A stretch of DNA of 64,000 nt from an uncultured candidatus Porisulfidus sp. (GTDB lineage: Bacteria; Pseudomonadota; Gammaproteobacteria; Poriferisulfidales; Oxydemutatoraceae), in assembly GCA_965215125.1 (NCBI GenBank), contig OZ244052.1:1376001-1440000 (forward strand). The letters run 5' to 3'. The position numbers were made by a program, and so were the translations under genes. Below, piece after piece: positions 5,800-58,049 of this stretch. Under the pieces are notes generated by a model. That model made no database searches. It was not told where the DNA came from and saw only the letters and a list, made by a program, of their open reading frames with translations. Each line of letters begins with the position of its first letter. Within the stretch, counting starts at the first letter, position 1.

Positions 5800-5801
5800 A
5801 G

Positions 5802-10203: not shown

Positions 10204-10212
10204 TAGGATAAC

Positions 10213-10437: not shown

Positions 10438-10452
10438 GCCGATCAGATAGTC

Positions 10453-11391: not shown

Positions 11392-11404
11392 CGTAGCTTT
11401 AAGA

Positions 11405-12118
11405 TCAGTAGTCTATCGCTCGGTTGACCCAATCTTTGACTTTGCCGACTAGTCCTTTATTGCCGTTGTTCCGTGAAGTCGCTTTTGGATACTGTGGTGT
11501 CGGTTTGACTTCGCGCGGCGGTAAGTATTTGTTAACCGGGTTATAACCGAGTTCCGGCATCAGTTGCGCCCCACCGCGTTGGCGTGCCATTTTGGATACC
11601 TCCGAGTCGGGGTCGTCGAAATCGCCGAAAAAACGGGCGTGGGTAGGACATGTTAAGACACAAACGGGTTTTCTTTCCTCCTCGGGTAATGCTTGATCGT
11701 AAATGCGGTCTATGCATAGGGTGCATTTTTTCATAACGCCGTCTTCTCGATCCAACTCCCGCGCACCGTAAGGACATGCCCAAGCGCAGTAATTACAGCC
11801 CATACATTTCTCTTGGTCTACCAATACGATACCGTCTTCGGGACGTTTATACGATGCTCCCGTAGGACAGACCGTGACACAATCGGCATCCTCGCAGTGC
11901 ATACACGACATCGGGAAATGAATCGTTTTACTATCCGGATAATCGCCCACCTCGTAATTTCGGATACGATTGAACCATACGCCGGAAGGGTCTTTACCGT
12001 AAGGGTTATAGTCGGTGAGCGGCCCGGTCATACCCGAGGTGTTCCATTGTTTGCAAGCAACCGCACACGCATTGCAACCTACGCAAGTATCTAAGTCTAT
12101 TACTAATCCTAACTTCAT
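11405..12118 (-). CDS. soeB: Sulfite dehydrogenase Fe-S subunit SoeB
   Basis: Four 4Fe-4S Cys clusters, MKLGLVIDLDTCVGC. Confidence 0.92.
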   Translation of the reverse strand: MKLGLVIDLDTCVGCNACAVACKQWNTSGMTGPLTDYNPYGKDPSGVWFNRIRNYEVGDYPDSKTIHFPMSCMHCEDADCVTVCPTGASYKRPEDGIVLVDQEKCMGCNYCAWACPYGARELDREDGVMKKCTLCIDRIYDQALPEEERKPVCVLTCPTHARFFGDFDDPDSEVSKMARQRGGAQLMPELGYNPVNKYLPPREVKPTPQYPKATSRNNGNKGLVGKVKDWVNRAIDY

Positions 12119-15063
12119 TTGAGTCCTCTGGTTATGATGTCTTTGAAAGAACGTTTTAAGTGCACCGCCTTATGCGATTGATAGCGCAATGTGGCATCGG
12201 CATCCTGTTGTACCGCTTTAATCCGTGGCTCGTAGAGGGGCTGTACGCCGTCGTTGCTTCCGTTTGCAGGACTGATTTTGACGCATAAATCGTACCACGC
12301 CGCTTGTCCGGTAACGGGGTCGGCATTAGCAACCGGACGGTCGTACAAATCCTTGGGCAACAATTCATCTATTAAATGGTTCAGCAAAAATCCTTCGTTG
12401 GCTTCGTTGGCATCTTCGGATAAGCCCCATGTGCCGCGCGCCTTACCTATGGCATTCCATGTCCATACGGTGTCTTCTTGAATACCTTCCATCAATTTTA
12501 TCTGCACACGAATTTTAGCGTTGCGAGATTCCACCCACACCCACGACAAATCTTCAATGCCCATCCGTTCGGCACGTTTGCGGTTCATATAGAGAAAGTT
12601 TTTGGCAATGATTTGTCTGAGCCATGGGTTTTGTGAATCCCACGAATGGTACATCATCATCGGTCGTTGCGTAATTGCATAAAAGGGATAATCGCGACTG
12701 TCGTGTACCTGCGGAGTTTGCTCCAGCGGCGTGTAGTGTGAAGGCAGCGGCGAGCAGAAGGTTTTGATACGCTCCCGATCCTTTTGTTGCGGCGGTTGTG
12801 GTCCGTTGTATACGCCCATCGCTGCCAAGCGGAATTTTTGCAAGGTCTCCGAATAAAGCTCTATGACGACAGGCTCGGAGCTTTCGTTAAAGCCGACCCC
12901 TTTTGCAAACTCCAGATAGTCCTTGTTCGCAAAACGGTAAAAGCGCATGTGTTCGGGCAACTCGTAATGCAGAAAACATTTGTTTTCAATATATTTTTCC
13001 CATTGTTTGGGGTTGGGTTCGCCTCGCAGGTGTTTGCTTCCGTCCGCCCCGCGCCAGCCTGCCAGAAAACCGATTCCCGGAGCTTTCTGAAAATTGACTA
13101 TAAAATCTTTGTAGTCCTTATATTTGGCACCGCCGTCTTCGTTGAGGAATGCCGGGAATTTTAATCGGGATGCCAGTTCAATCATGACTTCTTGCCAAGG
13201 CTTTGCGTCGCGATCCGGCTCTAGTACCGGGGCGCGTATAGAGTCGCAAACGGCATCGGGATCCGAGATCGGTCTATCCAACAGCGATATAGTATCGTAG
13301 CGTTCTAAATAGGTCGTGTCGGGCAGAACCAAATCGGCAAATTGAACCATCTCCGAGTTAAAGGCATCTATAACGACCAAAAACGGGATTTTATATTCTC
13401 CGCCGGCATCTTTAGCCTTAAGCATATTTTGTATCTTGGCAACATTCATCGTTGAATTCCAACTCATATTTGCCATAAACAGCATCAGAGTATCTATGGG
13501 ATAGGGATCGCCGTTGGCAGCATTCGTTATCACGGTGTGCATCAGTCCATGGTTAGCCAAAGGTGCCTCCCATGAATAGGCTTTATCTATGCGCAAAGGC
13601 TGCCCTTTGTCGTCAATGACCAAGTCCTCGGGACAAGTAGGAAACCCCAGCGGAGGTGCGGGAAGGGCTTCGCCGGCTTTGCTGTGCTGTGCGGGTTTAA
13701 TTGACGGGGGAATATGCTTAGGATAGGGCGGCTTGGCTCGATATGCTCCGGGACAATCTATAGCACCGAGTAAAATTTGCAACAGATGGATCGCTCTGCA
13801 GGTTTGAAAGCCGTTGGAGTGCGCTGAAATACCGCGCATCGCATGCATAGATACCGGCCGCCCGATGAAGCTATCGTGCTGTCTCCCCGCACTATCCACC
13901 CATTGGCACGGCACCTCTATAGTCTCTTTGAAAGCGATATGCGCCATTTCAAGTGCCAAACGTTCTATCGTGTCGGCGTTGATACCGCAAACGGCGGCTG
14001 CGTGTTCGGGGGCATATTTTTCGTCAAGGTATTGTTCGGTGAGCGTTGTAAATACGGTTTTTAATTTAATGCCTTCTTTGCTCCGGTATTCGCCGAACAA
14101 TGCAGGTTGTGTGCCGCACAGTGCCGCTGCCGCAATGCTCTCTGTTTTTAGGTCCCAGATATACGGTTTGCCTTCGGTATTGCGATAGACCAAGCCATCG
14201 TCGGAGCCGCCCGGATTATCGATTAGCAAATAAGGTGCATTGGTATACCGCACTAAAAATTCCCAATCAAATAATTCGTTTTTTAATAGTACGTGCACCA
14301 TAGATAAAGCTAACATCGCATCGCTGCCGGGAATGACAGGAACCCACTCGTCGGCAATGGCTTGGTAGCCGGTGCGTACCGGATTGACGGCAACAAACTT
14401 ACTCCCGCGTCGCTTAAGTTTTTCCAATCCGATCTTAATCGGGTTGGAAGCGTGGTCTTCGGCAACCCCCCAAAGCATGAAATACTTGGTACGATCCCAG
14501 TCCGGCTCGCCGAATTCCCAAAACGAATATCCCATCGTATACAGGCCGCCGGCTGCCATATTAACCGAGCAGAAGCCACCGTGGGCTGCCCAGTTGACTG
14601 TCCCGAACTGTTGCGCCCATAGCCCGGTCAGAGCCTGCATTTGATCGCGACCGGTGAAATAAGCGAGCTTTTTAGGATCGCTTTTCCTGATTTTATCGAG
14701 CCGCTCAACCAAAATATCGAGTGCTTTCTGCCAACTAATTTCTTCAAATTCTCCGCGACCTCGGTCTGCAGTTGCCTTGCGTAGCATAGGCTTTTTGAGC
14801 TTGGCAGGCGAGGATTGTTTCATAATGCCGGCGTTGCCTTTGGCGCACAACACACCGCGGTTCACCGGATGCTCTCGGGTGCCTTGTATAAAACGAATTT
14901 TGTTATTTTCCAACGTCACCTTGATCCCGCAACGACAAGCACACATATAGCAAGTTGTGTGCTTTATTTGTTGATTAGCGTGATCTTCAAAACAAGGTAA
15001 GTTGCCGTCTTCGGCGGTATCGCCTGCAATGACTTTATCGGGCAATGATTTCTCTCCACTCAA
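12115..15063 (-). CDS. soeA: Sulfite dehydrogenase molybdopterin subunit SoeA
   Basis: TTCYMCACRCGI, AAHGGFCSVNMA, MYHSWDSQN. Confidence 0.92.
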   Translation of the reverse strand: MSGEKSLPDKVIAGDTAEDGNLPCFEDHANQQIKHTTCYMCACRCGIKVTLENNKIRFIQGTREHPVNRGVLCAKGNAGIMKQSSPAKLKKPMLRKATADRGRGEFEEISWQKALDILVERLDKIRKSDPKKLAYFTGRDQMQALTGLWAQQFGTVNWAAHGGFCSVNMAAGGLYTMGYSFWEFGEPDWDRTKYFMLWGVAEDHASNPIKIGLEKLKRRGSKFVAVNPVRTGYQAIADEWVPVIPGSDAMLALSMVHVLLKNELFDWEFLVRYTNAPYLLIDNPGGSDDGLVYRNTEGKPYIWDLKTESIAAAALCGTQPALFGEYRSKEGIKLKTVFTTLTEQYLDEKYAPEHAAAVCGINADTIERLALEMAHIAFKETIEVPCQWVDSAGRQHDSFIGRPVSMHAMRGISAHSNGFQTCRAIHLLQILLGAIDCPGAYRAKPPYPKHIPPSIKPAQHSKAGEALPAPPLGFPTCPEDLVIDDKGQPLRIDKAYSWEAPLANHGLMHTVITNAANGDPYPIDTLMLFMANMSWNSTMNVAKIQNMLKAKDAGGEYKIPFLVVIDAFNSEMVQFADLVLPDTTYLERYDTISLLDRPISDPDAVCDSIRAPVLEPDRDAKPWQEVMIELASRLKFPAFLNEDGGAKYKDYKDFIVNFQKAPGIGFLAGWRGADGSKHLRGEPNPKQWEKYIENKCFLHYELPEHMRFYRFANKDYLEFAKGVGFNESSEPVVIELYSETLQKFRLAAMGVYNGPQPPQQKDRERIKTFCSPLPSHYTPLEQTPQVHDSRDYPFYAITQRPMMMYHSWDSQNPWLRQIIAKNFLYMNRKRAERMGIEDLSWVWVESRNAKIRVQIKLMEGIQEDTVWTWNAIGKARGTWGLSEDANEANEGFLLNHLIDELLPKDLYDRPVANADPVTGQAAWYDLCVKISPANGSNDGVQPLYEPRIKAVQQDADATLRYQSHKAVHLKRSFKDIITRGLK

Positions 15064-15164
15064 ATAATTATCTAAAGCATTGAATTTTACCTATTAGTAG
15101 AGATTAAAGCAAGGCGATACTCCCCTATTGCAATGCACGTGTTATCCAATGATTGCGGTTCCGC

Positions 15165-15391
15165 ACAATGTTACGCCACTTGCCCAGCCGGGCAAGTGGC
15201 AGTCGGAGGTCATGTGAAAAGACTGGAAATTAAACAATCATTTCATCTTATAAGGTATCCGATTTGCACACCCTCACCATTCTGCACTTATAAGGATAAA
15301 CCCTAGTTTATCCGACCTACATACCCATGTTAAGGCTCTGCACAATGTCACGCCGTTTGTGCTACTGAACAAACGGTGGTTCTATTGTGCC
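15165..15391. repeat. Two divergent copies of hairpin module B (15175-15200, 15351-15378)
   Basis: Both follow the module-B flank GCACAATGT(C/T)AC; stems GCCACTTGCCC/GGGCAAGTGGC and CGCCGTTTGT/ACAAACGGTG. Confidence 0.65.
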
Positions 15392-15430
15392 GGTATACCC
15401 TATAATAGACCTTTTTACATACACGGGAAA

Positions 15431-16624
15431 ATGCCGCTACTTAATATAACTTTTTGGTTTTTAGCCGGCCTCATAGTCGGATGGTTCTTGGCTACGGCAC
15501 AAGATGACGGTTTTGACAATACGGTGTCGGTGCTTTCGGATAAGACCGAACAAAATATGGAGATCTCTCAAATGGTAGCTTTGAATGATAATCAAACCGA
15601 GAGTATCTATACCGAAGAAGCTATTGAGAAGAACAGTATCGTAATAGAGAAATTTGAAAAAGCGATAGAGAAGAATAACCGAGAGGCAGTCCTTATTTAT
15701 AAGCAAGAACTGCGTGCCGGTGGCGACCTTACAAAGCAAATGCGTAGCCGTTTGATTGCCCGCATGGTCAGGTTGATACGGCTACATCGGCACCGAGATG
15801 CTCGACAATTAATAAGCGCATACCTTGACTCCAACGCCTACGATGCCGAGGTCTTGGTGATACAAGCCCAGCTAAATCATATCTTGGGACGCCATTTGGA
15901 CGCACTTGGCAATGTTTATGAGGCAAAAATTTACGGAGATCGAAGCATAGAAGAGAAAACTATAGACCAGTTTATCGACAAAATACTCACCGAATACGAA
16001 AAGCTATTGATAGAAAAAAAAGAGTGGAATTCATTGGTTTCTCTCTACAGTTTGGTAGTGGAAAAAGATTATAGCGAGCGTCAATCTTCTTATTATTACA
16101 AGTTGTCGCAGGCACAATTCAAACTCGGCGATTATTACAATGCACTTGCTAGTCTAAGCCAAATTCTCGGCAACCCTTTGTGGAATAGAAAGGCGCAATA
16201 TTTCCAGTTAACGATAGAGAAATTCATTGAAGGCAACGGTATTGTTGCCATTCCCGTCAAATATATAGACCCGCATAAATTCTTGGCGATAGTAACCATC
16301 AACGATACGATTGAAGCGGAACTCTTAATAGATACCGGTGCTTCTCTTTCGGTGCTTAGACAAAAGTTTATAGACGAGGTTGAACTGCCGGTGAAAGACG
16401 AAGAACCTCTTACGCTGACCACTGTCAGCGATGTCGTCGAGGCACGCACTATCAAATTGGATAGTTTCGGTATCAACGATATTAAATTCGCCGATATGCC
16501 TATAGGGGTGACCGAAATGCCCGATGATTTTGTTCCCGATGGCTTACTCGGCATGGATTTTTTAAGTAAATTCGAGTTTAATCTAGATCAAGAAGATTTA
16601 ACCCTTTATCTATATAGTCTATAG
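15431..16624 (+). CDS. TPR-like plus retropepsin-like aspartyl protease
   Basis: LLIDTGAS and DGLLGMDFL motifs, N-terminal TM; ATG at 15431 preferred because the upstream ORF extension lies in a repeat. Confidence 0.8.
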   Translation: MPLLNITFWFLAGLIVGWFLATAQDDGFDNTVSVLSDKTEQNMEISQMVALNDNQTESIYTEEAIEKNSIVIEKFEKAIEKNNREAVLIYKQELRAGGDLTKQMRSRLIARMVRLIRLHRHRDARQLISAYLDSNAYDAEVLVIQAQLNHILGRHLDALGNVYEAKIYGDRSIEEKTIDQFIDKILTEYEKLLIEKKEWNSLVSLYSLVVEKDYSERQSSYYYKLSQAQFKLGDYYNALASLSQILGNPLWNRKAQYFQLTIEKFIEGNGIVAIPVKYIDPHKFLAIVTINDTIEAELLIDTGASLSVLRQKFIDEVELPVKDEEPLTLTTVSDVVEARTIKLDSFGINDIKFADMPIGVTEMPDDFVPDGLLGMDFLSKFEFNLDQEDLTLYLYSL

Positions 16625-16660
16625 TTCAGTTGCTGAAGTGATGCGAATACAATATTGTTA

Positions 16661-16945
16661 TTCCCCTCCTGTGGAGGGGTGGCAGGCGCAATAGAACCAC
16701 CACTTGTTGCAGTAGCACAAGTGGTGTCACTTTGTGCAGACCCTAACGCATATTGCAAAATGTAAAGCCTTTCTCTGGGGTGCTTGCGTCGTATCTGTAC
16801 GAGTATAGTGCCGGTACATTCCCCTCCTGTGGAGGGGTGGCAGGCGCAATAGAGCCGCCGATTGAGCCAGTAGGTCAATCGGCGTAACGGTATGCAAAAT
16901 CTTAGTACATATTACAAAATGTAAAACCTTTTCATGGGGTGGTCA
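16661..16945. repeat. Tandem pair (158-bp period) of A+B modular repeat units
   Basis: TTCCCCTCCTGTGGAGGGGTGGCAGGCGCAATAGA at 16661 and 16819, each followed by a 10-bp stem hairpin. Confidence 0.85.
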
Positions 16946-16970
16946 TCACAATGATGTGGCACAGCAGTCA

Positions 16971-17933
16971 TTAGGTCATAGAAACCCTTTTTACCTGATA
17001 GCCGTATCCTTCCAGCAGGCTCAGCACGCCTTCTTTGCCGTACAAATGTAAGGCACCGACGGCGATAAAAGTATTTTTTCTACGCAAAGGTGCCAACATA
17101 TAGTGTGCCATTACGATATTGCGAATATACAACACATGCTTGAGGTAGGTTTTTTTATAACCTTTATCCGTAGACTCTTGGGATATAAAACGCGTGGCAA
17201 GCGACAGCATCTGTGCCAAATCTTCTTTTAGATAAAATTCAATCATCGTTTCCGCAACGGACGATAGTTCATTGAGATGCTCCACACGATCCTTCAGCAA
17301 AGCTATCTGTGCATCAACCGGGAAAGCGTAGTACGCCGCCATCAACTCCTCGAGCGTCTCTAATTGATACACCGTTGCCGAATTATCCAGTGCCATTTGA
17401 AAAAGCAGATAATCCAACATAACCGAATTATTAGTGTTGCTTTTATCCGGGGCATCTTCGGTCCTATAAATTCCGGATAGTGCGTGCATCGCAGCCCACG
17501 GTTTCAATCTCTCTATGCGTTCATCCTTAAAGCCGTTCATTAGCAGTCGCTCGCGTATGGATTGATATGTTTTAGCATCGACCAAATCACTCAACCGCTG
17601 TCCCTCGTCGAGCATCATATCTTTGACTATGCTCCTGAAGCCGGAATTCGGGCTGAAATAACGTACTCCCGGGAAGGTTTCTATGCAAAAATTATCCGCT
17701 TCCAACAAAGCCGATTTGACCGACTGTTTTAATTCGGAGATACGCATGTCGTTTGAGTGTAAGGTTCCGAATAGATAGCCTATGTGTTCGCCCGCCTTTG
17801 ATATAGACCAAAACAATCCCTTATCGAAGCGCGATGCGGCTTGGGTTGTCTCGGCGGATTTTAATTCTGCCTGCAACGCAGCAGATGATACCAGCAGTGA
17901 TAAAGCCGATAGTGTTAATAAAAGTCTTTTCAT
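16971..17933 (-). CDS. TraB/GumN family protein
   Basis: Signal peptide, YLFGTLH, LKPWAA, LET, RN..M, FIAVGALHL.G..GVL. Confidence 0.88.
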   Translation of the reverse strand: MKRLLLTLSALSLLVSSAALQAELKSAETTQAASRFDKGLFWSISKAGEHIGYLFGTLHSNDMRISELKQSVKSALLEADNFCIETFPGVRYFSPNSGFRSIVKDMMLDEGQRLSDLVDAKTYQSIRERLLMNGFKDERIERLKPWAAMHALSGIYRTEDAPDKSNTNNSVMLDYLLFQMALDNSATVYQLETLEELMAAYYAFPVDAQIALLKDRVEHLNELSSVAETMIEFYLKEDLAQMLSLATRFISQESTDKGYKKTYLKHVLYIRNIVMAHYMLAPLRRKNTFIAVGALHLYGKEGVLSLLEGYGYQVKRVSMT

Positions 17934-18042
17934 ATTTCACTCCCTATGTGTTTAAGGCGGTTAGTTGCCAATGGTTTTATTTTAGCAGTAAATTAAATGA
18001 TGAGCGATATTAGGTGCTAATACGATGGGTCCCAAGAGAAAT

Positions 18043-18825
18043 TTATCGTTTGCAATAATGCTCTATAATTGCCGGCAATATATCTTCGTCAATCGGGCTA
18101 CGGGCAACGATGGGTGGACGCTTGAAACCTAGCTTGCTATACAATTCTTTGATACCGAGACTTCCCAAAACCAGTTGTCTATCGAGCAACATAGCAACAG
18201 AATCCGCCTCGGTCATTGCGTGGAGGTTTGCCAAAGTTTCACCACTTGCCACGGTAATATAATCGGGCACCGGGTGCTGTTCGTCCAATCTCAAGCATTT
18301 TGACGGTCTTTGTCTACGATAGACTTCAACATAATCTACCTCCAGTCCTCGGCGAGTGAGTTCTCTCGCTAAATACGGGTTTCCTCCTTGACCGCGAAAA
18401 ATCAATACTGCCCCGCGTGTTATATTTTTTATGGACTGCATTGCTGCCAATGCCTCGCTACTCGCCGCTTCGTGCGGGTGTATTGCGTCGGCAATGCCTG
18501 CCTTTGCCAATGCTTCTGCGGTTTTAATGCCGACTGCGGCAACCGGTTTATTGATTTGGTAGATGCCCGTCTTGTGCAATAGCCGAGTGCCGTAATGCAC
18601 CGCATTGCGACTGATAAAAACCAACAGACTGTATTTATCAAGCTGTTTGATCCTGCTCAGATTGGCTTCACTGTGTGCGGTATCTACGATTTCCATACAC
18701 GGGAAACGAATGACCGTAGCACCTTGTTCGGCACAAAGCTCCGATAGTCTATCCGCAAGTTGAACAGGTCGCGTGACCATAACGCAACAACCTTGCAGGG
18801 GGAGATTTTTACGAGGTTTATTCAT
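18043..18825 (-). CDS. hemD: Uroporphyrinogen-III synthase
   Basis: VTRP, FISRNAV, AVGIKTA, VYRR; overlaps the hemC stop. Confidence 0.9.
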   Translation of the reverse strand: MNKPRKNLPLQGCCVMVTRPVQLADRLSELCAEQGATVIRFPCMEIVDTAHSEANLSRIKQLDKYSLLVFISRNAVHYGTRLLHKTGIYQINKPVAAVGIKTAEALAKAGIADAIHPHEAASSEALAAMQSIKNITRGAVLIFRGQGGNPYLARELTRRGLEVDYVEVYRRQRPSKCLRLDEQHPVPDYITVASGETLANLHAMTEADSVAMLLDRQLVLGSLGIKELYSKLGFKRPPIVARSPIDEDILPAIIEHYCKR

Positions 18826-19741
18826 TATCTCGGAAGGGTGCAATCAGCGCAGCTGCACCTTGGGCGAGCAAGGCGTTTGCAGCTGCAATACCAAGTTGTT
18901 CGCTTTGCTCCGGGGTGCCGTGCCGTTCGTCTCTTAGTATTTTCTTTCCATCTATATCACCGACTAAAGCACTCAGATAAAGGTTGCCATTATTGTATTG
19001 CGCATAGGCTGCGATCGGCATCTTACAATCACCTCCCAACGCCAAACTCAACGCTCGCTCTGCTTGCAAACAAGCATAACTCGTAGTATCGTTTAGTGCG
19101 GCGATATAAGACAGCATCGGGTGATCATGCAAACATTCTATACCGATAATCCCTTGTCCTATCGCCGGTAGACTGATAGGATGCGGTAGCAAATAACGAA
19201 TACGCCGGGATAAACCCAATCGTTCGAGCCCGGCGGCAGCTAATATCAAAGCGTCGCATTCGCCTCTATCGAGCTTGTCGAGACGGGTGCCGACATTGCC
19301 TCGTAAAGGCAACACCTTTATATTCGGATAACGATGTTTCAACTGACACTGCCGCCTTAGACTTGCCGTTCCTACAATCGCATGCTTCGGTAATTGCTCA
19401 AGATTGTCGTAATTTTTAGACACGAAGGCATCCGACGGGTCTGCGCGTGTTAATGCTGCGGCGACGATAAAACCCTTGGGCAATTCGCACGGCACATCTT
19501 TCATCGAATGAACCGCAATGTCGGCTCGGTCTTCTAACAGGGCTTTTTCTAATGATTTAACGAATAAGCCTTTGCCGCCTATCTCGCTTAGGGAACTTTC
19601 AATCCGTTCGTCTCCCTCGCTTACTACGGGGACGATTTCTATCTTGATTTCAGGATACAGTGTCGCTAGATGTTCGGCGACTATATTCGTTTGTTTTAAG
19701 GCGAGTGGGCTCTTGCGTGTGACGATACGAATCGTATTCAC
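18818..19741 (-). CDS. hemC: Hydroxymethylbilane synthase
   Basis: TRKSPLA, GGKGLFVK, AVHSMKDVP, LRGNVGTRL. Confidence 0.97.
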   Translation of the reverse strand: MNTIRIVTRKSPLALKQTNIVAEHLATLYPEIKIEIVPVVSEGDERIESSLSEIGGKGLFVKSLEKALLEDRADIAVHSMKDVPCELPKGFIVAAALTRADPSDAFVSKNYDNLEQLPKHAIVGTASLRRQCQLKHRYPNIKVLPLRGNVGTRLDKLDRGECDALILAAAGLERLGLSRRIRYLLPHPISLPAIGQGIIGIECLHDHPMLSYIAALNDTTSYACLQAERALSLALGGDCKMPIAAYAQYNNGNLYLSALVGDIDGKKILRDERHGTPEQSEQLGIAAANALLAQGAAALIAPFRDNE

Positions 19742-19805
19742 TATGTACTACGCGACAACGAGCAATCGCTATCGTGTGATCCGGAAAATAGGTGTCGGCC
19801 GATTT

Positions 19806-20618
19806 TTATACATCGCTTGAAACAAAAGGTTGCCATTCGGGTGAAGCGGGCGAATGTACTACGAACGGAGGATTGATTAAAGAATCCCGCGTGTTGTATC
19901 GTAGTGGTTGCCCTGCATAATCATTCAGCTGTCCGCCCGCTTCTTCTACGATGCACTGGCCTGCCGCGGTGTCCCATTCGCAGGTAGGTCCTACGCGCAC
20001 ATAGAGATCGGCACTGCCGTCTGCAATCAAACAGCATTTTAGAGAACTGTCGGCGCGCACCAACTCGTGGTTGCCGATTTTATCGAGCAGATTTTTCGTC
20101 GGCACATTAATATGTGCACGGCTAACGGCAACGATAGGCTTCGCTCGCGGATCTTTGCGTACCGATATTTTGACCGGTTTTTTGTCCGGGTCTCGGCGGA
20201 AAGCACCGTGTTTTTCGGCAGCATAAAAAAGTTGATCCGTAGCGGGTGCATAGATTACTCCGAGAATGGAGGTATTATTATCTATCAGTGCGATATTCAC
20301 GGTGAAATAATCGTTTTTATTGATAAATCCCTTGGTGCCGTCGAGTGGGTCTACCAACCAATACCGCTGCCACTGCTTGCGTTCTTGATAAGGATGTTCG
20401 GACGAGGTCTCTTCCGACAACACCGGAATATCGGGGCTCAAAATGTTTAGCTGTTCGGTAATCAAGGTATCCGATTTTAAGTCGGCAACGGTGACCGGAG
20501 ACTTATCTTCCTTGTATTCCACATTGATTTCGTGGTTTTTGTAGATTTCCATAATTTCCAGCCCGGCTTGCTTTGCAATCGTGCAGACTTGCTCTAAATA
20601 TTCATAGGGTGTTTTCAT
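19806..20618 (-). CDS. cysQ: 3'(2'),5'-bisphosphate nucleotidase CysQ
   Basis: KEDKSPVTVAD, WLVDPLDGT, EWDTAAG. Confidence 0.93.
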   Translation of the reverse strand: MKTPYEYLEQVCTIAKQAGLEIMEIYKNHEINVEYKEDKSPVTVADLKSDTLITEQLNILSPDIPVLSEETSSEHPYQERKQWQRYWLVDPLDGTKGFINKNDYFTVNIALIDNNTSILGVIYAPATDQLFYAAEKHGAFRRDPDKKPVKISVRKDPRAKPIVAVSRAHINVPTKNLLDKIGNHELVRADSSLKCCLIADGSADLYVRVGPTCEWDTAAGQCIVEEAGGQLNDYAGQPLRYNTRDSLINPPFVVHSPASPEWQPFVSSDV

Positions 20619-21037
20619 CCTCGGCCCCAACGTTTGTACCTTTTTTTGCAATACGCTAATAAGGATTTGTAATCGGGAAAATAAAGTTCAAAACCATCCT
20701 CCGCGGGCGCATCGAACTCGCAATAATCGTTTGAATGATCCCTACAGATTTGGGGTCTATTTTCATAAATACCACAGCCTCCGTCGGGAAGCAAGTGACT
20801 GCACTTTGTGTCGAACAATAAACACCATCCGTCTTCGTCTTTATAGACGCTTACGTTGTGATGCGAGACTTGCCACAGCAGGTGTTCAAAATCCACCTTG
20901 CTACGCGGTGTGTCTATCGCTTGTGTTATATAAGTACAACATGTGCTGTTTTTACAAAAACTACATTTGTTTTCCGGGGTTATTTTATTTTTAACATTTG
21001 TTTTAACCTTGATAGGTATGGAAAGTGTCTGTGGCAT
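20615..21037 (-). CDS. YkgJ family (CxxCxxCC) cysteine-cluster protein
   Basis: CSFCKNSTCC, CGIYENRPQICR. Confidence 0.85.
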   Translation of the reverse strand: MPQTLSIPIKVKTNVKNKITPENKCSFCKNSTCCTYITQAIDTPRSKVDFEHLLWQVSHHNVSVYKDEDGWCLLFDTKCSHLLPDGGCGIYENRPQICRDHSNDYCEFDAPAEDGFELYFPDYKSLLAYCKKRYKRWGRG

Positions 21038-21051
21038 TTTATCAGAGCCTT

Positions 21052-21345
21052 TTAAGTGTCGGTTCGGGATTTGGATTTTTTGATTTTTGTCAAAGGGATC
21101 ACTTGACTGGTGCGCGGTTCGTCGGCAAATCGGGGACGCATTTTAGCTTTTGACTTTCCCGATGCTTGTTGCAGGGTTTGCTCGCGTGCGGAAATCAACG
21201 CAAAACAATCGCGAATATCTTTTATTGTGCTATCCTTTAGTGGATGACGCATGCCTGCCGGCGGTGTCGTGTCTTTGACAACATTCGCCAGCGTTTTGCG
21301 CATCATGATTAGTATGCGTTGTTCTACGGATAAGTCTTCGGTCAT
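21052..21345 (-). CDS. Conserved hypothetical protein
   Basis: 97-aa ORF in an apparent operon with ykgJ and cysQ. Confidence 0.7.
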   Translation of the reverse strand: MTEDLSVEQRILIMMRKTLANVVKDTTPPAGMRHPLKDSTIKDIRDCFALISAREQTLQQASGKSKAKMRPRFADEPRTSQVIPLTKIKKSKSRTDT

Positions 21346-21426
21346 AGCTTTATTCGGTGAATGGTTGCATTATAACCCGTTTGCGTACAGACTGATACGA
21401 TTGGGCAAATATCTAAGTTAGAAGAG

Positions 21427-21741
21427 GTGATTATGAAACAAGCGGAATTTTCAATAGGCGAAGTCGTAAAGCATAAGCTATTCAATTACTACGGTGTGAT
21501 CTACGATGTAGATGCCGTCTTTATGGGCAACGATCTATGGTACAAGCAGATTGCAAAAACCCGTCCCCCTAAAGACCAGCCATGGTATCGCGTGCTGGTT
21601 GACGGTCACGAACACGAGACCTATGTTGCACAACGCAACCTTGAGCATTGTGAGTATAGAGAGATCGATCATCCGATGCTTGACTTTTATTTTGACGGCA
21701 ACGACAAAACGCGATATACATCCAATGCGCTCAAAACTTAA
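21427..21741 (+). CDS. hspQ: Heat shock protein HspQ (YccV-like)
   Basis: FSIGEVVKHKLF.Y.GVI.DVD, QPWY.VL, YVAQRNL. Confidence 0.9.
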   Translation: MIMKQAEFSIGEVVKHKLFNYYGVIYDVDAVFMGNDLWYKQIAKTRPPKDQPWYRVLVDGHEHETYVAQRNLEHCEYREIDHPMLDFYFDGNDKTRYTSNALKT

Positions 21742-21746
21742 ACACG

Positions 21747-22184: not shown

Positions 22185-22189
22185 CGGGT

Positions 22190-22264
22190 GGTTATTCCCC
22201 TCCACAGGAGGGGAATAACCACCCCGTCAGGCTGCGCCTGCCACCCCTCCGAAGGAGGGGAATA
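22190..22264. repeat. Module A repeat pair between convergent genes
   Basis: TTCCCCTCCACAGGAGGGGAA plus ACCCCGTCAGGCTGCGCCTGCCACCCCTCCGAAGGAGGGGAA. Confidence 0.8.
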
Positions 22265-22284
22265 GACATCGTAGTTGCAAGATC

Positions 22285-24020: not shown

Positions 24021-24090
24021 TATGCTAAGTAAAGCGACTCGAGACTAAAATTATTATTATATTGTAATAATCCCTAACCTAGAGTATGGA

Positions 24091-27918: not shown

Positions 27919-28151
27919 CTCTATTTTCTCCTATATAGATATGTGTGAAGTATAACACATATTAAAATTTGGTGACCACGCAGGTGCTCAAGCCACCGGC
28001 GGCCGTCGCCGGGGCGACCTCAAGCCACTCGAAGTCGCCCCGGCACGGCTATTTGCGTTAGAAGCAAAGTTTTTCTGGAGGGTCCGCTCCAATAGATTCG
28101 CCGGTCGAACCGGTAGGTCAATCGGCGCGACATTGTGCAGAACCGCGCACA

Positions 28152-31411: not shown

Positions 31412-31700
31412 CGGGCTGTTGAAAAAGTGCAGACATCGCACAAATCCAACCGCTGTGCGCCACATAATTGTCCAAACCACCTGTAGGGGCAGGATAAAGC
31501 CGCCGATTGAGCCGGTAGGTCAATCGGCAATTTTGATGTCTGCCCTTAAATACCGTCCAGAACAACCGTAACCGCTTACGCCATTTGGTTTTGGTTTCCA
31601 TAAATTGAATGAATGAATGTATAAATCGTGCCGGCCAACGCGTTACGGGCGGACATGCAAGTCCGCCCCTACGGTTCATGGATACTTTTTCAACAGCCCC
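31412..31700. mobile_element. MITE-like module D with an inverted GTAG-REP doublet and a B hairpin
   Basis: 16-bp TIR GGGCTGTTGAAAAAGT / ACTTTTTCAACAGCCC; TSD AGCGT at 31407-31411 and 31701-31705. Confidence 0.82.
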
Positions 31701-34964: not shown

Positions 34965-35128
34965 TTCCCCTCCTGTGGAGGGGTGGCAGGCGCAATAGAA
35001 TCGCCGATTGAGCCAGTAGGTCAATCGGCGTAACATTGTGCAGAACCTTGATACATAGTACAAAATGTAAAGCCTTTCTATGGGGTGGTCGCCGCGTATT
35101 CTGCACAAGCATAGTATCGGTACATTCC
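34963..35128. repeat. A+B modular repeat unit
   Basis: Same unit as 16819-16945; B hairpin at 35002-35030. Confidence 0.82.
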
Positions 35129-53625: not shown

Positions 53626-53905
53626 TCCTGCAGCGTGTCTCCTCCGACTTCCTAGGCACTGCATCTACCTAAGCGTTTATCTTATATCAAATAAGCCGGG
53701 GTTTAATATATCTGTCTGCCCTTAAGTATCGTCCTGCACAGTCGTAACCGCTTGCGCCGTATGGTTTTGGTTTCCATAAATTAACTGATGTACGATTTTA
53801 TTTGTGCAAACGCAGCGCGTTTGAGTTCTGCATAATGTCACGCCGATTGACCTACTGGTTCAATCGGCGGCTCCATCTTGCCCCTACAGGCATCAATCAG
53901 CAATA

Positions 53906-54856
53906 CTACTCGGTGGTTCCGTTCTTTAGCTGTTTAATCTCGTCAGCAGATAAACCCGTGACTTCGGAAATCAACGAAACCTTCAGGCCTTTTTGCAACA
54001 TATTCAAAGCAATTTCGTGATCTCTTTTTACTTTACCTTCAGCCAACCCTTCAGCCTTGACTTCTTCCATGATCTCTTGCTTTCTCACATGGCGTTCCCA
54101 CTCTTGTCTTTCTAACAATATAGCGTTCCAATACTCCCTATTCTCTTTTGATACTTTCTCTAAATGTTTTAATGCCATCTTCGTCTCTCCATCTTGCGAT
54201 AAATGCTTTACTTGCTCAGCCGTCAATTCCGCCGAGTGCTTGATAATATAGCACCACCTATCCGTCATATCAACCAACTCAAAGTGGCTTTTATTGAACT
54301 TGTTCAATTCCACTATCACCAACCCAAAATCCTTAGTCAATTCCTTATGCCGATGCTTACGCAGAGTGATTGTGGTCTCGTTTATATAGTCCTCTTCATC
54401 AAACACCGTGAACCGGGTAAACACCAGTAAGTAGCTCGGATCAATCTGATCAAACTTTTGCCCACGCTTCATACCATAAGAGTGCAACTGCACCCAATAA
54501 GCCAACATTCTACTAAAGAGGTCCTTTTGAGAATAGCCTTGCATCTCTATGTCGATATTCTCACCGCTATTTAATTTGACATGGAGGTCTAGCACTACTT
54601 GTTTGCCACCCGGTGTGTTCGGTGGGATAGAGCTATCCTGCAGATGTAGCTTATCGCCCGATTGGCTTTGTTGATTTGCGGTTTTGGATACAAGGTTGAA
54701 TATGCCGGGATTGAATGTCATCATATCCGGCGCATTATCGGGGGTCGGCAGGAAGCTCTTAATCAACGAGGACAATACTTGCTTATTGCTTGAGAAGTAT
54801 CGCTTAAAGGAAATATCTTTTGTCAAGTCTAAGTATCCGAGATGTTTTTCATCCAT
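53906..54856 (-). CDS. Rpn family (PD-(D/E)XK nuclease/putative transposase), copy 1
   Basis: DISFKRYF, LDL, IDIEMQ, ELNKF, IALNML..I..VTGLS..EI. Confidence 0.88.
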   Translation of the reverse strand: MDEKHLGYLDLTKDISFKRYFSSNKQVLSSLIKSFLPTPDNAPDMMTFNPGIFNLVSKTANQQSQSGDKLHLQDSSIPPNTPGGKQVVLDLHVKLNSGENIDIEMQGYSQKDLFSRMLAYWVQLHSYGMKRGQKFDQIDPSYLLVFTRFTVFDEEDYINETTITLRKHRHKELTKDFGLVIVELNKFNKSHFELVDMTDRWCYIIKHSAELTAEQVKHLSQDGETKMALKHLEKVSKENREYWNAILLERQEWERHVRKQEIMEEVKAEGLAEGKVKRDHEIALNMLQKGLKVSLISEVTGLSADEIKQLKNGTTE

Positions 54857-55262
54857 AGTAAATCTTCTATAAATTGGGTGTAAAACATCTACCCTAAACT
54901 CGGTATTGAGTAGGGTGGGAAAAAAATGGATGAATGGTAGTAAATACAGGTTGAACGGTATATTAGAGGGTGATATTTCCTTGCGAAGGAGAGGAATATC
55001 CACCCTAAAGGTGCCTTAAGAATACTTTTTCAACAGCCCACGAAGTGTCTGCACTGATCAATTCCCCTCCTGTGGAGAGGTGGTCGCAAAAGTGTTTGCA
55101 CGATTATAGTGTTGGTCCATTCCTCTCCTTCGGAGGGGTGGCCTATGCATTTTGCAATGTATGCGTTTAGCAATCATGTTCAGGTTCTGCATAATGTCAC
55201 GCCGATTGACCTACTGGATCAATCGGCGGTTCTGTTCAGCCTGACGGGGTGGTCGCCGAAGT

Positions 55263-56494
55263 GGGACTGTTGAAAATAGAAAGGTCGATTGACTTACTGG
55301 TTCAATCGGCGGCTCCATCCTGCCCCTACAGGCATCAATCAGCAATACTACTCGGTGGTTCCGTTCTTTAGCTGTTTAATCTCGTCAGCAGATAAACCCG
55401 TGACTTCGGAAATCAACGAAACCTTCAGGCCTTTTTGTAACATGTTCAAAGCAATTTCGTGATCTCTTTTTACTTTACCTTCAGCCAACCCTTCAGCCAA
55501 CCCTTCTGCCTTGACTTCTTCCATGATCTCTTGCTTTCTCACATGGCGTTCCCACTCTCGTCTCTCTATGGATATAGCGTTCCAGGCATCTATATCCTCT
55601 TTTGATATTTCCTCTAAATGTTTTAATGCCATCTTCGTCTCTCCGTCTTGTGATAAATGCTTTACTTGCTCAGCCGTCAATTCCGCCGAGTGCTTGATAA
55701 TATAGCACCACCTATCCGTCATATCAACTAACTCAAGGTGGCTCTTGTTGAACTTGTTCAATTCCACTATCACCAACCCAAAATCCTTAGTCAATTCCTT
55801 ATGCCGATGCTTACGCAGAGTGATTGTGGTCTCGTTTATATAGTCCTCTTCATCAAACACCATGAACCGAGTAAACACCAGTAAGTAGCTCGGATTAATC
55901 TGACTAAACTTTTGTCCACGCTTCATACCATAAGAGTGCAACTGCACCCAATAAGCCAACATTCTACTAAAGAAGTCTTTTTGTGAATAGCCTTGCATCT
56001 CTATGTCGATATTCTCACCACTATGTAACTTGACATGGAGGTCTAGCACAACCTGTTTGCCACCCGGTGTGTTCGGTGGGATAGAACTATCCTGCAGATG
56101 TAGCATATCGCCCGATTGGTTTTGTTGATTTGCGGTTTCGGATGCAGGGTTGAGTATGCCGGGGTTGAGTATCATCATATCCGGCGCATTATCGGGGGTC
56201 GGCAGAAAGCTCTTAATCAATGAGAACAGTACCTGCTTATTGATCGAGAAGTATCGCTTAAAGGAAATATTTTTTGTCAAGTCTAAGTATCCGAGATGTT
56301 TTTCATTCATAGTAAATCTCCTATAAATTGGGTGTAAAACATCTACCCTAAACCCGGTATTGAGTAGGAGGAGAGACAAATGGATGAACGGTAGTAAATA
56401 CAGGTTGAACGGTATATTAGAAGGTGATATTCCCTCGCGAAGGGGGGGAATATCCACCCTAAAGGTGTCTTGAGAATACTTTTTCAACAGCCCA
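55263..56494. mobile_element. Module-D element carrying Rpn copy 2
   Basis: Ends GGGACTGTTGAAAA / TTTTCAACAGCCCA; direct repeat CGAAGT at 55257-55262 and 56495-56500. Confidence 0.72.
55348..56310 (-). CDS. Rpn family protein, copy 2
   Basis: Close paralog of copy 1; SD AGGAG before MNEKHL. Confidence 0.88.
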   Translation of the reverse strand: MNEKHLGYLDLTKNISFKRYFSINKQVLFSLIKSFLPTPDNAPDMMILNPGILNPASETANQQNQSGDMLHLQDSSIPPNTPGGKQVVLDLHVKLHSGENIDIEMQGYSQKDFFSRMLAYWVQLHSYGMKRGQKFSQINPSYLLVFTRFMVFDEEDYINETTITLRKHRHKELTKDFGLVIVELNKFNKSHLELVDMTDRWCYIIKHSAELTAEQVKHLSQDGETKMALKHLEEISKEDIDAWNAISIERREWERHVRKQEIMEEVKAEGLAEGLAEGKVKRDHEIALNMLQKGLKVSLISEVTGLSADEIKQLKNGTTE

Positions 56495-56660
56495 CGAAGT
56501 GTCTGCACTGATCAATTCCCCTCCTTCGGAGGGGTGGCCTATGCATTTTGCAATGCATGCGTTTAGCAGTCATGTTGAGATTCTGAACAAAGTCACGCCG
56601 ATTGACCTACTGGTTCAATCGGCGGCTCCATCCTGCCCCTACAGGCATCAATCAGCAATA

Positions 56661-57635
56661 CTACTCGGTGATTCCGTTCTTTAGCTCTTTAATCTCGTCA
56701 GCAGATAAACCTGTCAATTTTGAAATCTCAGAAACCTCATAATTCTCTTGCAACATATTCAAAGCAATTTCGTGATCTCTTTTTACTTTACCTTCAGCCA
56801 ACCCTTCAGCCAACCCTTCAGCCAACCCTTCTGCCTTGACTTCTTCCATGATCTCTTGCTTTCTCACATGGCGTTCCCACTCTCGTCTCTCTATGGATAT
56901 AGCGTTCCAGCAATCTATATCCTCTTTTGATATCTCCTCTAAATGTTTTAATGCCATCTTCGTCTCTCCGTCTTGTGATAAATGCTTTACTTGCTCAGCC
57001 GTCAATTCCGCCGAGTGCTTGATAATATAGCACCACCTATCCGTCATATCAACCAACTCAAGGTGGCTCTTGTTGAACTTGTTCAATTCTACTATCACCA
57101 ATCCAAAATCCTTAGTCAATTCTTTATGCCGATGCTTACGCAGAGTGATTGTGGTCTCGTTTATATAGTCCTCTTCATCAAACACCATGAACCGAGTAAA
57201 CACCAGTAAGTAGCTCGGATTAATCTGACTAAACTTTTGCCCACGCTTCATACCATAAGAGTGCAACTGCACCCAATAAGCCAACATTCTACTAAAGAAG
57301 TCCTTTTGAGAATAGCCTTGCATCTCTATGTCGATATTCTCACCGCTATTTAATTTGACATGGAGGTCTAGCACAACCTGTTTGCCACCCGGTGTGTTCG
57401 GTGGGATAGAACTATCCTGCAGATGTAGCATATCGCCCGATTGGTTTTGTTGATTTGCGGTTTCGGATGCAGGGTTGAATATGCCGGGGTTGAGTATCAT
57501 CATATCCGGCGCATTATCGGGGGTCGGCAGAAAGCTCTTAATCAATGAGAACAGTACCTGCTTATTGATCGAGAAGTATCGCTTAAAGGAAATATCTTTT
57601 GTCAAGTCTAAGTATCCGAGATGTTTTTCATTCAT
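56661..57635 (-). CDS. Rpn family protein, copy 3
   Basis: Close paralog with a distinct C-terminal tail. Confidence 0.88.
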   Translation of the reverse strand: MNEKHLGYLDLTKDISFKRYFSINKQVLFSLIKSFLPTPDNAPDMMILNPGIFNPASETANQQNQSGDMLHLQDSSIPPNTPGGKQVVLDLHVKLNSGENIDIEMQGYSQKDFFSRMLAYWVQLHSYGMKRGQKFSQINPSYLLVFTRFMVFDEEDYINETTITLRKHRHKELTKDFGLVIVELNKFNKSHLELVDMTDRWCYIIKHSAELTAEQVKHLSQDGETKMALKHLEEISKEDIDCWNAISIERREWERHVRKQEIMEEVKAEGLAEGLAEGLAEGKVKRDHEIALNMLQENYEVSEISKLTGLSADEIKELKNGITE

Positions 57636-58049
57636 AGTCAATCTCCTATAAATTGGGTGTAAAACATCTACCCTAAACCCGGTATTGAGTAGGGGGAGAG
57701 ACAAATGGATGAACGGTAGTAAATACATGTTGAACGGTATATTAGAAGGTGATATTCCCTCGCGAAGGAGGGGAATATCCACCCTAAAGGTGTCTTGAGA
57801 ATACTTTTTCAACAGCCCCCGAAGTGTCTGCACTGATCAATTCCCCTCCTTCGGAGGGGTGGCCTATGCATTTTGCAATGCATGCGTTTAGCAGTCATGT
57901 TGAGGTTCTGAACAAAGTCACGCCGATTGACTTACTGGCTCAATCGGCGGCTCTATTCAGCCTGACGGAGTGGTTGTTGCGTGGGACTGTTGAAAAAACA
58001 TCCACGAATCGTAGGGACAGGTACATTCCCCTCCTGTGGAGGGGTGGCA

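What the first reader, a model, noticed from the sequence alone, without database searches (positions are those of the whole stretch)
16698..16884. Dispersed bulged hairpin (module B) with multiple compensatory base-pair changes
Seen: adjacent repeat units with near-identical flanks carry CACCACTTGT-tGCagtaGC-ACAAGTGGTG (16698-16726) and CGCCGATTGA-gCCagtaGG-TCAATCGGCG (16856-16884). Four of ten stem pairs and one inner pair covary, keeping a 10-bp stem, 1-nt bulge, 2 bp and an AGTA/TACT loop. Other covarying variants are at 15351-15378 and 15175-15200. Consensus-like copies are at 4207, 28099, 31501, 35002, 53841, 55200, 55284, 56596 and 57921. Inference: structure rather than sequence is conserved. 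A bulged hairpin about 8 nt from the module end resembles the ssDNA hairpins read by HUH/Y1 transposases (IS200/IS605, TnpA-REP); an unknown structured RNA is the alternative.
Basis: partly seen in the sequence, partly recalled or inferred. Interest (0 to 1): 0.78.

Follow-up and report, generated by a model that had tools for sequence, protein, structure and literature searches.

The report
REP-like bulged hairpin repeat family
The bulged hairpin is real and is the core of a small palindromic DNA repeat present about 190 times in this genome, an ordinary kind of bacterial "REP-like" repeat, though with an unexplained tie to one nuclease gene family.

Summary
The 29-nt hairpin (10-bp stem, 1-nt bulge, 2 bp, 4-nt loop) is at every coordinate given. 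It occurs about 188 times in this 2.22-Mb genome and at least 150 times in each of three congeners. It was not found in 36 other genomes of the same family and order.

At least eight stem variants keep pairing through matched changes at 7 of 10 stem positions. The loop motif GTAG and a 5' flank AATAGAAC stay fixed.

The features match a repetitive extragenic palindrome (REP):
- It lies outside genes, mostly just after them.
- It often supplies the stop codon.
- It forms subfamilies with complementary stem changes.
- It nests in the loops of other palindromes.
- Its set of copies differs between species at the same sites.

Old shared copies decay, so the hairpin seems needed for spread rather than for a job at each site.

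No Y1/RAYT gene exists in this genome. Two congeners have one, but a different palindrome flanks it. Rfam gives no match, and no RNA data were available.

Unexpectedly, 7 of 12 Rpn-like PD-(D/E)XK nuclease genes end inside a hairpin unit, against 72 of 1603 other ORFs.

Verdict: a new member of a known kind, moderate interest, mobilising enzyme unresolved. Two earlier notes of this scan report Rpn-linked palindromes on other DNA.

The parts
16690..16744 (+). Hairpin B unit, stem class CACCACTTGT/ACAAGTGGTG (hairpin 16698-16726). It has the 5' flank AATAGAAC and the 3' flank TCACTTTGTGCAGACC. It lies inside a composite 'type 1' repeat of about 16660-16790.
   Evidence: (71.6 bits)
16848..16902 (+). 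Hairpin B unit, major stem class CGCCGATTGA/TCAATCGGCG (hairpin 16856-16884). It lies inside the second type-1 repeat of about 16818-16945.
   Evidence: (77.1 bits)
15351..15378 (-). Hairpin B, class CACCGTTTGT/ACAAACGGCG, one base short in the inner pair
   Evidence: 67.1 bits
15175..15202 (-). Divergent hairpin B relative (GCCACTTGCCC-AGCC-GGGCAAGTGGC). It is orthologous to a single copy in congener G003.
   Evidence: 23.3 bits
4206..4234 (-). Hairpin B nested in the loop of a GTAGGGGCGGAC-type palindrome ('type 3' context)
28099..28127 (+). Old hairpin B copy with 2 stem mismatches. The orthologous copy in G003 is also imperfect.
31501..31529 (+). Hairpin B (loop GGTA) in type-3 context
35002..35030 (+). 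Hairpin B in a type-1 repeat that starts at the stop codon of ORF 33594-34964. G003 has the surrounding palindromes at this site without the 77-nt B-bearing piece.
53841..53869 (-). Hairpin B 37 nt downstream of the stop of Rpn-like gene 53906-55003
55200..55228 (-). Hairpin B between tandem Rpn-like genes (type-2 context)
55283..55311 (-). Hairpin B (worn 3' arm) 37 nt downstream of the stop of Rpn-like gene 55348-56508
56596..56624 (-). Hairpin B 37 nt downstream of the stop of Rpn-like gene 56661-57833
57921..57949 (-). Hairpin B 88 nt upstream of Rpn-like gene 56661-57833
53906..57833 (-). Three tandem paralogues of a PD-(D/E)XK 'transposase' (Pfam PDDEXK_2, Rpn-like): 53906-55003, 55348-56508 and 56661-57833. 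Their last codons (..AACGGAAC CACCGAG TAG) run into a truncated B-type 5' arm.

Best explanation
Hairpin B is the core of a REP-type repeat: a short, non-coding, palindromic DNA element that is not autonomous.

The conserved unit is about 55 nt: AATAGAAC, then the 29-nt bulged hairpin with loop motif GTAG, then T(G/A/C)AC-TTGTGCAGAACC. It occurs alone and as a module of larger mosaic repeats.

Shown:
- High copy number restricted to one genus.
- Position outside genes, mainly at 3' ends.
- Pairing kept through matched changes between subfamilies.
- Nesting in the loops of other palindromes.
- Different sets of copies at the same sites in sister species.
- Decay of old shared copies.

Inferred: the hairpin is needed when the element is copied. 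It would be read as a folded single strand or a cruciform by a structure-specific DNA enzyme, as in REP/RAYT and IS200/IS605 systems. New copies would go preferentially into exposed ...(G/C)A sites such as hairpin loops and gene ends. Selection on the structure therefore acts on the few source copies, not at each site.

The enzyme is not identified. This genome has no Y1/RAYT gene, so its copies are either relics of a lost RAYT or are moved by something else. My split is RAYT-type enzyme, now lost, about 35%; the Rpn-like PD-(D/E)XK nucleases about 20%; other or recombination only about 45%.
For: Copy number and range:
- 188 copies by nhmmer in this genome.
- The pattern with 2 or fewer mismatches gives 120, 214, 182 and 176 hits in the own genome and three congeners. 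It gives 0 in the fourth congener and in 36 other genomes of the family and order, 41 genomes searched in all.

Location:
- 99 of 110 copies lie outside crude ORFs, which cover 90% of the genome. 35 of those 99 lie between convergent genes.
- Within 40 nt of stop codons, 38 copies are in sense orientation and 9 in antisense. About 22 ordinary genes take their stop from the unit.
- Genes bracketed by copies are housekeeping genes.

Structure:
- At least eight stem types differ at stem positions 2, 3, 4, 5, 6, 9 and 10, each with the matching change on the 3' arm.
- The bulge and the asymmetric loop are retained. Loop GTAG is 93-99% conserved. Conservation runs from -8 to about +18.

Mobility:
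- The left flank is a type-1 palindrome loop in 48 copies, a type-2 loop in 22, the loop of the GTAG palindrome in 30, another hairpin B in 16, and other, mostly unique, sequence in 72, out of 188.
- The nesting is reciprocal: the GTAG palindrome also sits inside B loops.
- The same intergenic sites hold different modules in the four species.
- The orthologous copies at window 28099 and 15175 and in G003 carry uncompensated mismatches.

Literature. Di Nocera et al. 2013 (PMC3733652; abstract, sections 5, 15 and 16 read in part) describe for GTAG REPs:
- subfamilies with alternative complementary stem residues;
- 1-bp bulges;
- location downstream of genes;
- REP termini providing TAG stop codons;
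- loss of the RAYT locus in some strains.
Against: - No cognate transposase flanked by hairpin B was found in any of the five genomes of the genus.
- The terminal tag is ATAG, 3 nt away from the stem, not GTAG at the foot.
- Close pairs are mostly direct (24) rather than inverted (5), unlike REPINs and BIMEs.
- No clean target-site duplication was found. Only one possible empty site was seen.
- The sense-orientation bias at gene ends could instead mean a role in the transcript.
- Many composite units may have spread as wholes, so the number of independent insertions of B itself is unknown.
Confidence: 0.7

Rival explanations
1. Hairpin B is the cis element of the Rpn-like PD-(D/E)XK nuclease genes (Pfam PDDEXK_2). 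The gene's 3' end with its hairpin would be the source copy, and the nuclease would cut or recombine at the hairpin. That would spread gene-less copies: a REP system driven by an Rpn-type nuclease instead of a RAYT.
For: - PF12784 is found only in the genus that has B: 12, 16, 13, 6 and 2 hits in its five genomes, and 0 in 36 other relatives.
- In this genome 7 of 12 such genes have a sense-oriented B at -40 to +130 nt of the stop. The figures are 72 of 1603 for other crude ORFs (Fisher p 3e-7), 0 of 13 for IS110 genes and 0 of 5 for TnpB genes.
- In 9 of 12 the last codons or the stop lie in the B flank or 5' arm.
- The same holds in congeners. All 13 G001 genes end ..AAGATT CGC TGA TTGA.., as do 5 of 10 in G003 and 1 of 5 in G004. 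This includes gene groups only about 58% identical in protein.
- Two earlier notes of this scan report Rpn-linked palindromes in other taxa. They are unchecked leads.
Against: - Only 13 of 188 copies lie within 300 nt of such a gene.
- B sits equally on the stops of housekeeping genes.
- The congener without B still has 2 PDDEXK_2 genes, and one subgroup in G003 lacks B.
- There is no constant inverted bracket around the genes.
- 27 ORF ends of distant homologues in 9 other gammaproteobacterial genomes show no B-like or shared hairpin apart from tandem duplicates.
- The tandem genes and the four species are not independent samples.
- Zhong et al. 2023 (PMC10400941, section 5 read) report no flanking repeats and argue that Rpn proteins are not transposases.
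Confidence: 0.15
2. Hairpin B works in RNA. It would be a 3'-UTR stem-loop that protects upstream mRNA from exonucleases or modulates termination of translation or transcription. Selection would then act on the RNA fold.
For: - Sense orientation dominates right after stop codons, 38 against 9 within 40 nt, and between co-directional genes, 33 against 14.
- Copies are enriched between convergent genes.
- REPs are proposed to act as RNA elements in Di Nocera et al. 2013 (abstract).
Against: - No Rfam match.
- No excess of G.T over A.C mismatches, 10 against 10.
- No T-run after the stem.
- Loops are found flipped relative to the flanks.
- Old orthologous copies decay instead of being kept paired.
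- Many copies nest inside other repeats.
Confidence: 0.1
3. The symmetry is a by-product of DNA repair. Intra-palindrome template switching would copy one arm onto the other, so matched changes would need no selection for structure.
For: - Stems are perfect in 63 of the 137 sites of the loose scan.
- Loop inversions relative to the flanks occur, which shows DNA-level events within the palindrome.
Against: - Such repair would erase the 1-nt bulge and the asymmetric loop. Both are kept in nearly all copies.
- Orthologous old copies carry uncorrected mismatches.
- The variants form discrete subfamilies with many identical members.
Confidence: 0.05

Closest known systems
GTAG-tagged REP elements (repetitive extragenic palindromes) and their RAYT/TnpA-REP partners (Nunvar et al. 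2010, search listing only; Di Nocera et al. 2013, PMC3733652, read in part)
   Same: - A 29-nt palindrome with more than 100 copies per genome.
- Position outside genes and mainly downstream of them.
- Subfamilies with complementary stem changes.
- An occasional 1-bp bulge.
- A short unpaired tag ending in TAG on one side, which often provides the stop codon of the upstream gene.
- Mosaic clusters with other repeats.
- A RAYT may be missing from some genomes.
   Different: - The tag is ATAG, 3 nt away from the stem. The invariant GTAG sits in the loop.
- Copies are mostly single or in direct tandem, not inverted doublets.
- No RAYT flanked by this palindrome was found. The RAYTs of two congeners are flanked by another palindrome with a proper GTAG foot.
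Subterminal hairpins of IS200/IS605 elements and their gene-less derivatives (recalled from general knowledge; no paper read here for this)
   Same: - A bulged, imperfect hairpin a few nucleotides inside an element end.
- Apparent insertion next to a short motif in single-stranded or loop DNA.
- Head-to-tail arrays.
   Different: - No Y1 transposase in the genome.
- The other end of the composite units carries a different small hairpin.
- No replication-strand bias, 61 against 49.
- The TnpB elements of this genome have their own terminal inverted repeats, unrelated to B.
Mosaic intergenic repeats: BIMEs of enterobacteria and NIMEs of Neisseria (recalled from general knowledge)
   Same: Short palindromic modules are combined in many orders in intergenic regions. 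IS110-family elements insert into such palindromes; here that was seen for the neighbouring modules.
   Different: The module sequences are unrelated. Here the modules nest inside each other's loops, and hairpin B itself was not seen as an IS110 target.

Membership tests
REP (GTAG super-family) | Short (20-40 bp) palindrome able to form a stem-loop | tested here: met
   A 29-nt hairpin, -12 to -13.8 kcal/mol as ssDNA, z -3.2 to -6.0
REP (GTAG super-family) | High copy number (more than 100 per genome) | tested here: met
   188 copies by nhmmer.
REP (GTAG super-family) | Outside genes, mostly downstream of genes and between convergent or co-directional genes | tested here: met
   99 of 110 lie outside crude ORFs, and 35 of those 99 lie between convergent genes.
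REP (GTAG super-family) | Unpaired GTAG tag at one end of the palindrome | tested here: inconclusive
   Positions -7 to -4 read A(.80) T(.75) A(.87) G(.75) and are followed by AAC before the stem. GTAG is instead 93-99% conserved in the loop.
REP (GTAG super-family) | Subfamilies with alternative complementary stem residues | tested here: met
   At least eight stem types. 8 of 12 pairs change on both sides.
REP (GTAG super-family) | A RAYT (Y1 HUH) gene flanked by the same palindrome | tested here: not met
   No PF01797 match in the own genome. Six RAYT-like loci in two congeners are flanked by a different palindrome.
REPIN / BIME organisation | Copies mostly in inverted pairs at fixed spacing | tested here: not met
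   Of 29 neighbouring pairs 260 nt or less apart, 24 are direct and 5 inverted.
IS200/IS605 ends or derived mini-elements | Y1 transposase present, like hairpins at both ends, and insertion biased to one replication strand | tested here: not met
   No Y1 gene. The right ends of composite units carry other small hairpins. Orientation relative to replication is 61 against 49.
Described structured RNA (Rfam 15) | Match to a curated covariance model | tested here: not met
   Only two tRNAs in the window at gathering score. Nothing at E<=1 on 16600-17000.
Integron attC site | RYYYAAC ... GTTRRRY core sites around a bulged hairpin of 57-141 nt, with an integron integrase | tested here: not met
   Read from the sequence: the flank ATAGAAC and its complement GTTCTAT do not fit the consensus, which is recalled. 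The hairpin is only 29 nt. The integrase was not searched.

The most novel reading that the evidence does not exclude
The hairpin family is the DNA partner of the Rpn-like PD-(D/E)XK nuclease genes of this genus. The genes end inside a hairpin unit, and the nuclease, not a Y1 transposase, cuts or recombines at the folded hairpin and seeds gene-less copies. That would be a REP-type system driven by an enzyme family whose natural DNA substrate is unknown.
Probability: 0.15. Interest if true: 0.8.

Novelty: new member of a known kind. Interest (0 to 1): 0.4.

Why it matters
As a REP-type family it is ordinary biology, but it documents how heavily an uncultured marine gammaproteobacterial genus is colonised by nested palindromic repeats. 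Exact copies occur in MAG records titled 'Ca. Porisulfidus' and 'Ca. Oxydemutatoraceae'.

It also gives a clean case in which structure is kept between subfamilies while single old copies decay.

The part that could matter more is the enrichment at Rpn-like nuclease genes. Rpn proteins are widespread, were long annotated as 'putative transposases', and have no known DNA site. A hairpin that their genes carry at the stop codon is a concrete substrate to test.

Tried and rejected
- TnpB (IS605-type) elements as carriers. The five copies have their own terminal inverted repeats (GGGAATTATATAG...) and no hairpin B at their ends.
- IS110-family elements as carriers or users. Two groups were delimited. 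Their junctions lie in the neighbouring palindromes, not in B, and 0 of 13 have B at the stop.
- RNA evidence. No RNA holder was listed for window 15400-17400, so expression is untested.
- DNA contigs of four runs laid on window 3001-23000. The short-read contigs break at the repeats and showed no usable gain or loss of units.
- Scan of metagenome contigs with an alignment of the Rpn-like proteins. 77 pattern matches, none confirmed.
- Search for empty sites under a model of an AGAAC target duplication. There were 0 hits for two predicted junctions. Of 58 type-1 tails, 3 lack B, and one of those looks like an empty site. This is too thin to define a target duplication.
- An outer helix formed by the flanks (GCGCAAT/ATTGTGC) appears in the fold of the 131-nt type-1 unit. 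The pairing register differs in type-2 units and is absent in unique contexts, so I did not count it as part of the hairpin.
- attC-like reading. Rejected on the core-site consensus and on size.
- Search of this scan's earlier notes by sequence. Nothing found.

Full report
**Observation**

The window is part of a single-contig genome of 2,220,706 bases, 46% G+C and 99% complete.

The two hairpins are at 16698-16726 and 16856-16884 as written. They lie in two adjacent repeat units 158 nt apart whose 79-nt cores are 80% identical, with the differences concentrated in the hairpin. Stem positions 2, 5, 6 and 10 and one inner pair differ between the two, each with the complementary change on the other arm.

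**Is it more than chance?**

- A strict scan (10-bp stem with at most 1 mismatch, a bulge, 2 bp, loop AGTA or TACT) finds 99 hairpins in the genome.
- A looser scan finds 137, against 32 in the reversed genome; 63 are perfect.
- To avoid choosing copies by their pairing, I picked sites by a 5-nt flank motif plus the loop only. Of 230 sites, 85 have 2 or fewer stem mismatches. None of 187 control sites has 3 or fewer.
- A sequence-only profile (nhmmer) gives 188 copies.
- Loops are AGTA (about 110 copies), GGTA, AGCA or AGTT.

**Covariation**

Stem types seen are CGCCGATTGA (the major one), CGCCGATTAA, CGCCGGTTGA, CGCCGTTTGT, CGCCACTTGT, CACCACTTGT, CGTTCCTTGT and CGCCACTTGC. Each occurs with the matching 3' arm.

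I built a covariance model from 12 window copies. It found 110 hits (81 distinct rows) in the window and in relatives' loci. On those hits:

- 95.1% of cells pair.
- 8 of 12 pairs change on both sides (50 cells).
- The covariation score is 0.230 against a shuffled mean of 0.101; 0 of 500 shuffles reach it.
- Slid controls pair in 15-45% of cells.

That alignment leans towards the structure, and the changes define a handful of subfamilies, so the number of independent events is small.

The bulge base varies (G .52, then T and A). Loop G15-T16-A17-G18 is 93-99% conserved. Conservation runs from -8 (AATAGAAC) to about +18 (TGACATTGTGCAGAACCT).

**Distribution across genomes**

| Feature | Own genome | Three congeners | Fourth congener | 36 other genomes of the family and order |
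|---|---|---|---|---|
| 29-nt pattern, 2 or fewer mismatches | 120 | 214, 182, 176 | 0 | 0 |

Exact copies also occur in three MAG records titled 'Ca. Porisulfidus' (two records) and 'Ca. Oxydemutatoraceae' (one record).

**Genomic setting**

- 99 of 110 copies lie outside crude ORFs, which cover 90% of the genome. 35 of those 99 lie between convergent genes.
- Between co-directional genes the AGTA orientation is on the sense strand in 33 cases against 14.
- Within 40 nt of stop codons the count is 38 sense against 9 antisense.
- About 22 ordinary genes take their stop codon from the unit. It is the TGA in the 5' arm, the TAG of the flank ATAG, or the TAG of the loop.
- Genes bracketed by two copies are housekeeping genes: glutamyl-tRNA synthetase, an MFS transporter, a TPR protein, a cyclopropane synthase and an ion channel.
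- Orientation relative to replication is 61 against 49.
- Stem mismatches show no excess of G.T over A.C, 10 against 10.

**Mosaic and nesting**

The left flank of the 188 copies falls into five contexts:

| Left context | Copies |
|---|---|
| Loop of a GGCAGGC...GCCTGAC palindrome, one orientation (type 1) | 48 |
| Same palindrome, other orientation (type 2) | 22 |
| Loop of a GTAGGGGCGGAC...GTCCGCCCCTAC palindrome (type 3) | 30 |
| Another hairpin B (type 4) | 16 |
| Other, mostly unique, sequence | 72 |

- The first palindrome occurs uninterrupted 107 times.
- The GTAG palindrome also occurs inside B loops, so the nesting is reciprocal.
- Junctions read GGCGCA^ATAGAAC, GGCTGA^ATAGAAC, GGGGCAGA^ATAGAGC, and GTGCAGA^AATAGAAT in the right flank of another B unit. 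This fits insertion after (G/C)A in exposed loops, but I could not define a target duplication.
- Close neighbours are direct in 24 cases and inverted in 5.

**Turnover between species**

Flanking genes are 86-95% identical between the four species, yet the same intergenic sites hold different module sets.

- At the stop of ORF 33594-34964 the window has a type-1 unit.
- G003 has the surrounding palindromes there without the 77-nt B-bearing piece.
- G004 has a B directly on the stop codon of the same gene.
- The fourth congener has no repeat there.

The orthologous copies at window 28099 and 15175 and in G003 carry uncompensated mismatches. Old copies therefore decay. The perfection of most copies reflects recent copying from a few source types, which is what a mobile element predicts and what a per-site function does not.

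**Candidate enzymes**

- Y1_Tnp (PF01797) has no match in this genome.
- Among 41 relatives it is found only in two congeners, with 1 and 5 loci. Those 198-aa RAYT-like genes are flanked by arrays of the GTAG palindrome, not by B. B lies within about 250 nt in 2 of 6 loci.
- TnpB and IS110 elements are unrelated to B.

**Unexpected link to Rpn-like genes**

The three tandem genes in the window flanked by B copies are PD-(D/E)XK 'transposases' (Pfam PDDEXK_2, Rpn-like).

- The family is found only in this genus among 41 genomes: 12, 16, 13, 6 and 2 hits, and 0 in the 36 others.
- In this genome 7 of 12 such genes have a sense-oriented B at the stop. The figures are 72 of 1603 for other crude ORFs (p 3e-7), 0 of 13 for IS110 genes and 0 of 5 for TnpB genes.
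- The last codons run into the B flank or 5' arm.
- The same is seen in congeners.

Against a causal link:

- Only 13 of 188 copies are next to such genes.
- B sits on the stops of unrelated genes too.
- There is no constant inverted bracket around the genes.
- The B-free congener keeps 2 such genes.
- Distant homologues in 9 other gammaproteobacterial genomes (10 of 299 other genomes searched had any match) show no shared hairpin at 27 ORF ends.
- Zhong et al. 2023 report no flanking repeats for rpn genes (PMC10400941, section 5 read). Kingston et al. 2017 does not mention hairpins or inverted repeats in its main text (PMC5350276, term search only).
- Two earlier notes of this scan describe Rpn-linked palindromes in other taxa. 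I did not test them, and they are leads only.

**Comparison with what is known**

Di Nocera et al. 2013 (PMC3733652; abstract, sections 5, 15 and 16 read in part) describe for GTAG-tagged REPs:

- subfamilies with alternative complementary stem residues;
- 1-bp bulges;
- location downstream of genes;
- REP termini that provide TAG stop codons;
- loss of the RAYT locus in some strains.

Hairpin B shares all of these. It differs in four ways. The tag is ATAG set 3 nt from the stem. GTAG sits in the loop. Neighbours are direct rather than inverted. No RAYT is flanked by it. Rfam has no match.

**Verdict**

The inference that structure is conserved is right. The element is best filed as a new family of REP-type palindromic DNA repeats, with the mobilising enzyme unresolved. 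The Y1 reading is unproven for this genome, and the RNA reading is unsupported but untested. The enrichment at Rpn-like nuclease genes is the one feature that goes beyond the ordinary.

Noticed in passing
window 53906-57833 (-): Three tandem Rpn-like PD-(D/E)XK genes (365, 386 and 390 aa). The DNA upstream of one shows three 12-nt repeats coding EGLA, the kind of four-residue repeat that Zhong et al. 2023 describe for Rpn C-terminal domains.
   Followed up: partly
window 51444-52592 (+) and 52863-53522 (-): Two IS110-family transposase genes of different groups. Across the genome, the roughly 1.35-kb group has ends AGGGCGGACAGATAT...GTCCGCCCCTACA and sits inside the CCCCTCC/GGAGGGG and GTAG-type palindromes. 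These look like REP-targeting IS110 elements.
   Followed up: partly
L112-L117 (congeners G004 and G001): RAYT-like Y1 genes (198 aa in L113) are present in 1 and 5 copies. They are flanked on both sides by tandem arrays of the palindrome CCGTAGGGGCGGAC-loop-GTCCGCCCCTACGG, a REPtron-like layout. The same palindrome is abundant in this genome, which has no RAYT.
   Followed up: partly
genome C1:1337629-1337810 (outside the window): Five head-to-tail hairpin B copies with a 38-nt period. All carry the same worn 3' arm (TCAATCAGCC).
   Followed up: no
window 24087-25225: A 1140-nt piece is absent from the orthologous site of G003. A piece of the same size also interrupts two IS110 copies elsewhere in the genome. 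It is probably another small insertion sequence.
   Followed up: no
window 35677-36100: This stretch is 99-100% identical to eight other places in the genome. It is the start of a multi-copy element that includes ORF 35780-38074.
   Followed up: no
window 949-4550: A 3.6-kb segment with a 1017-aa ORF (1052-4105) and a type-3 B copy replaces about 50 nt in G003. It is a strain-specific insertion bounded by repeats.
   Followed up: no
window 15434-16625 (+): A 396-aa protein with a C-terminal retropepsin-like aspartyl protease domain (gag-asp_proteas, Asp_protease_2). It is bracketed by B copies and conserved in all three B-bearing congeners.
   Followed up: no
genome C1: five TnpB genes (for example 1154165, 1726055): TnpB-only elements of about 1.26 kb with about 25-bp terminal inverted repeats (GGGAATTATATAG...TGTCAAGTTA..ATAATTCCC) and no Y1 partner in the genome.
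   Followed up: partly
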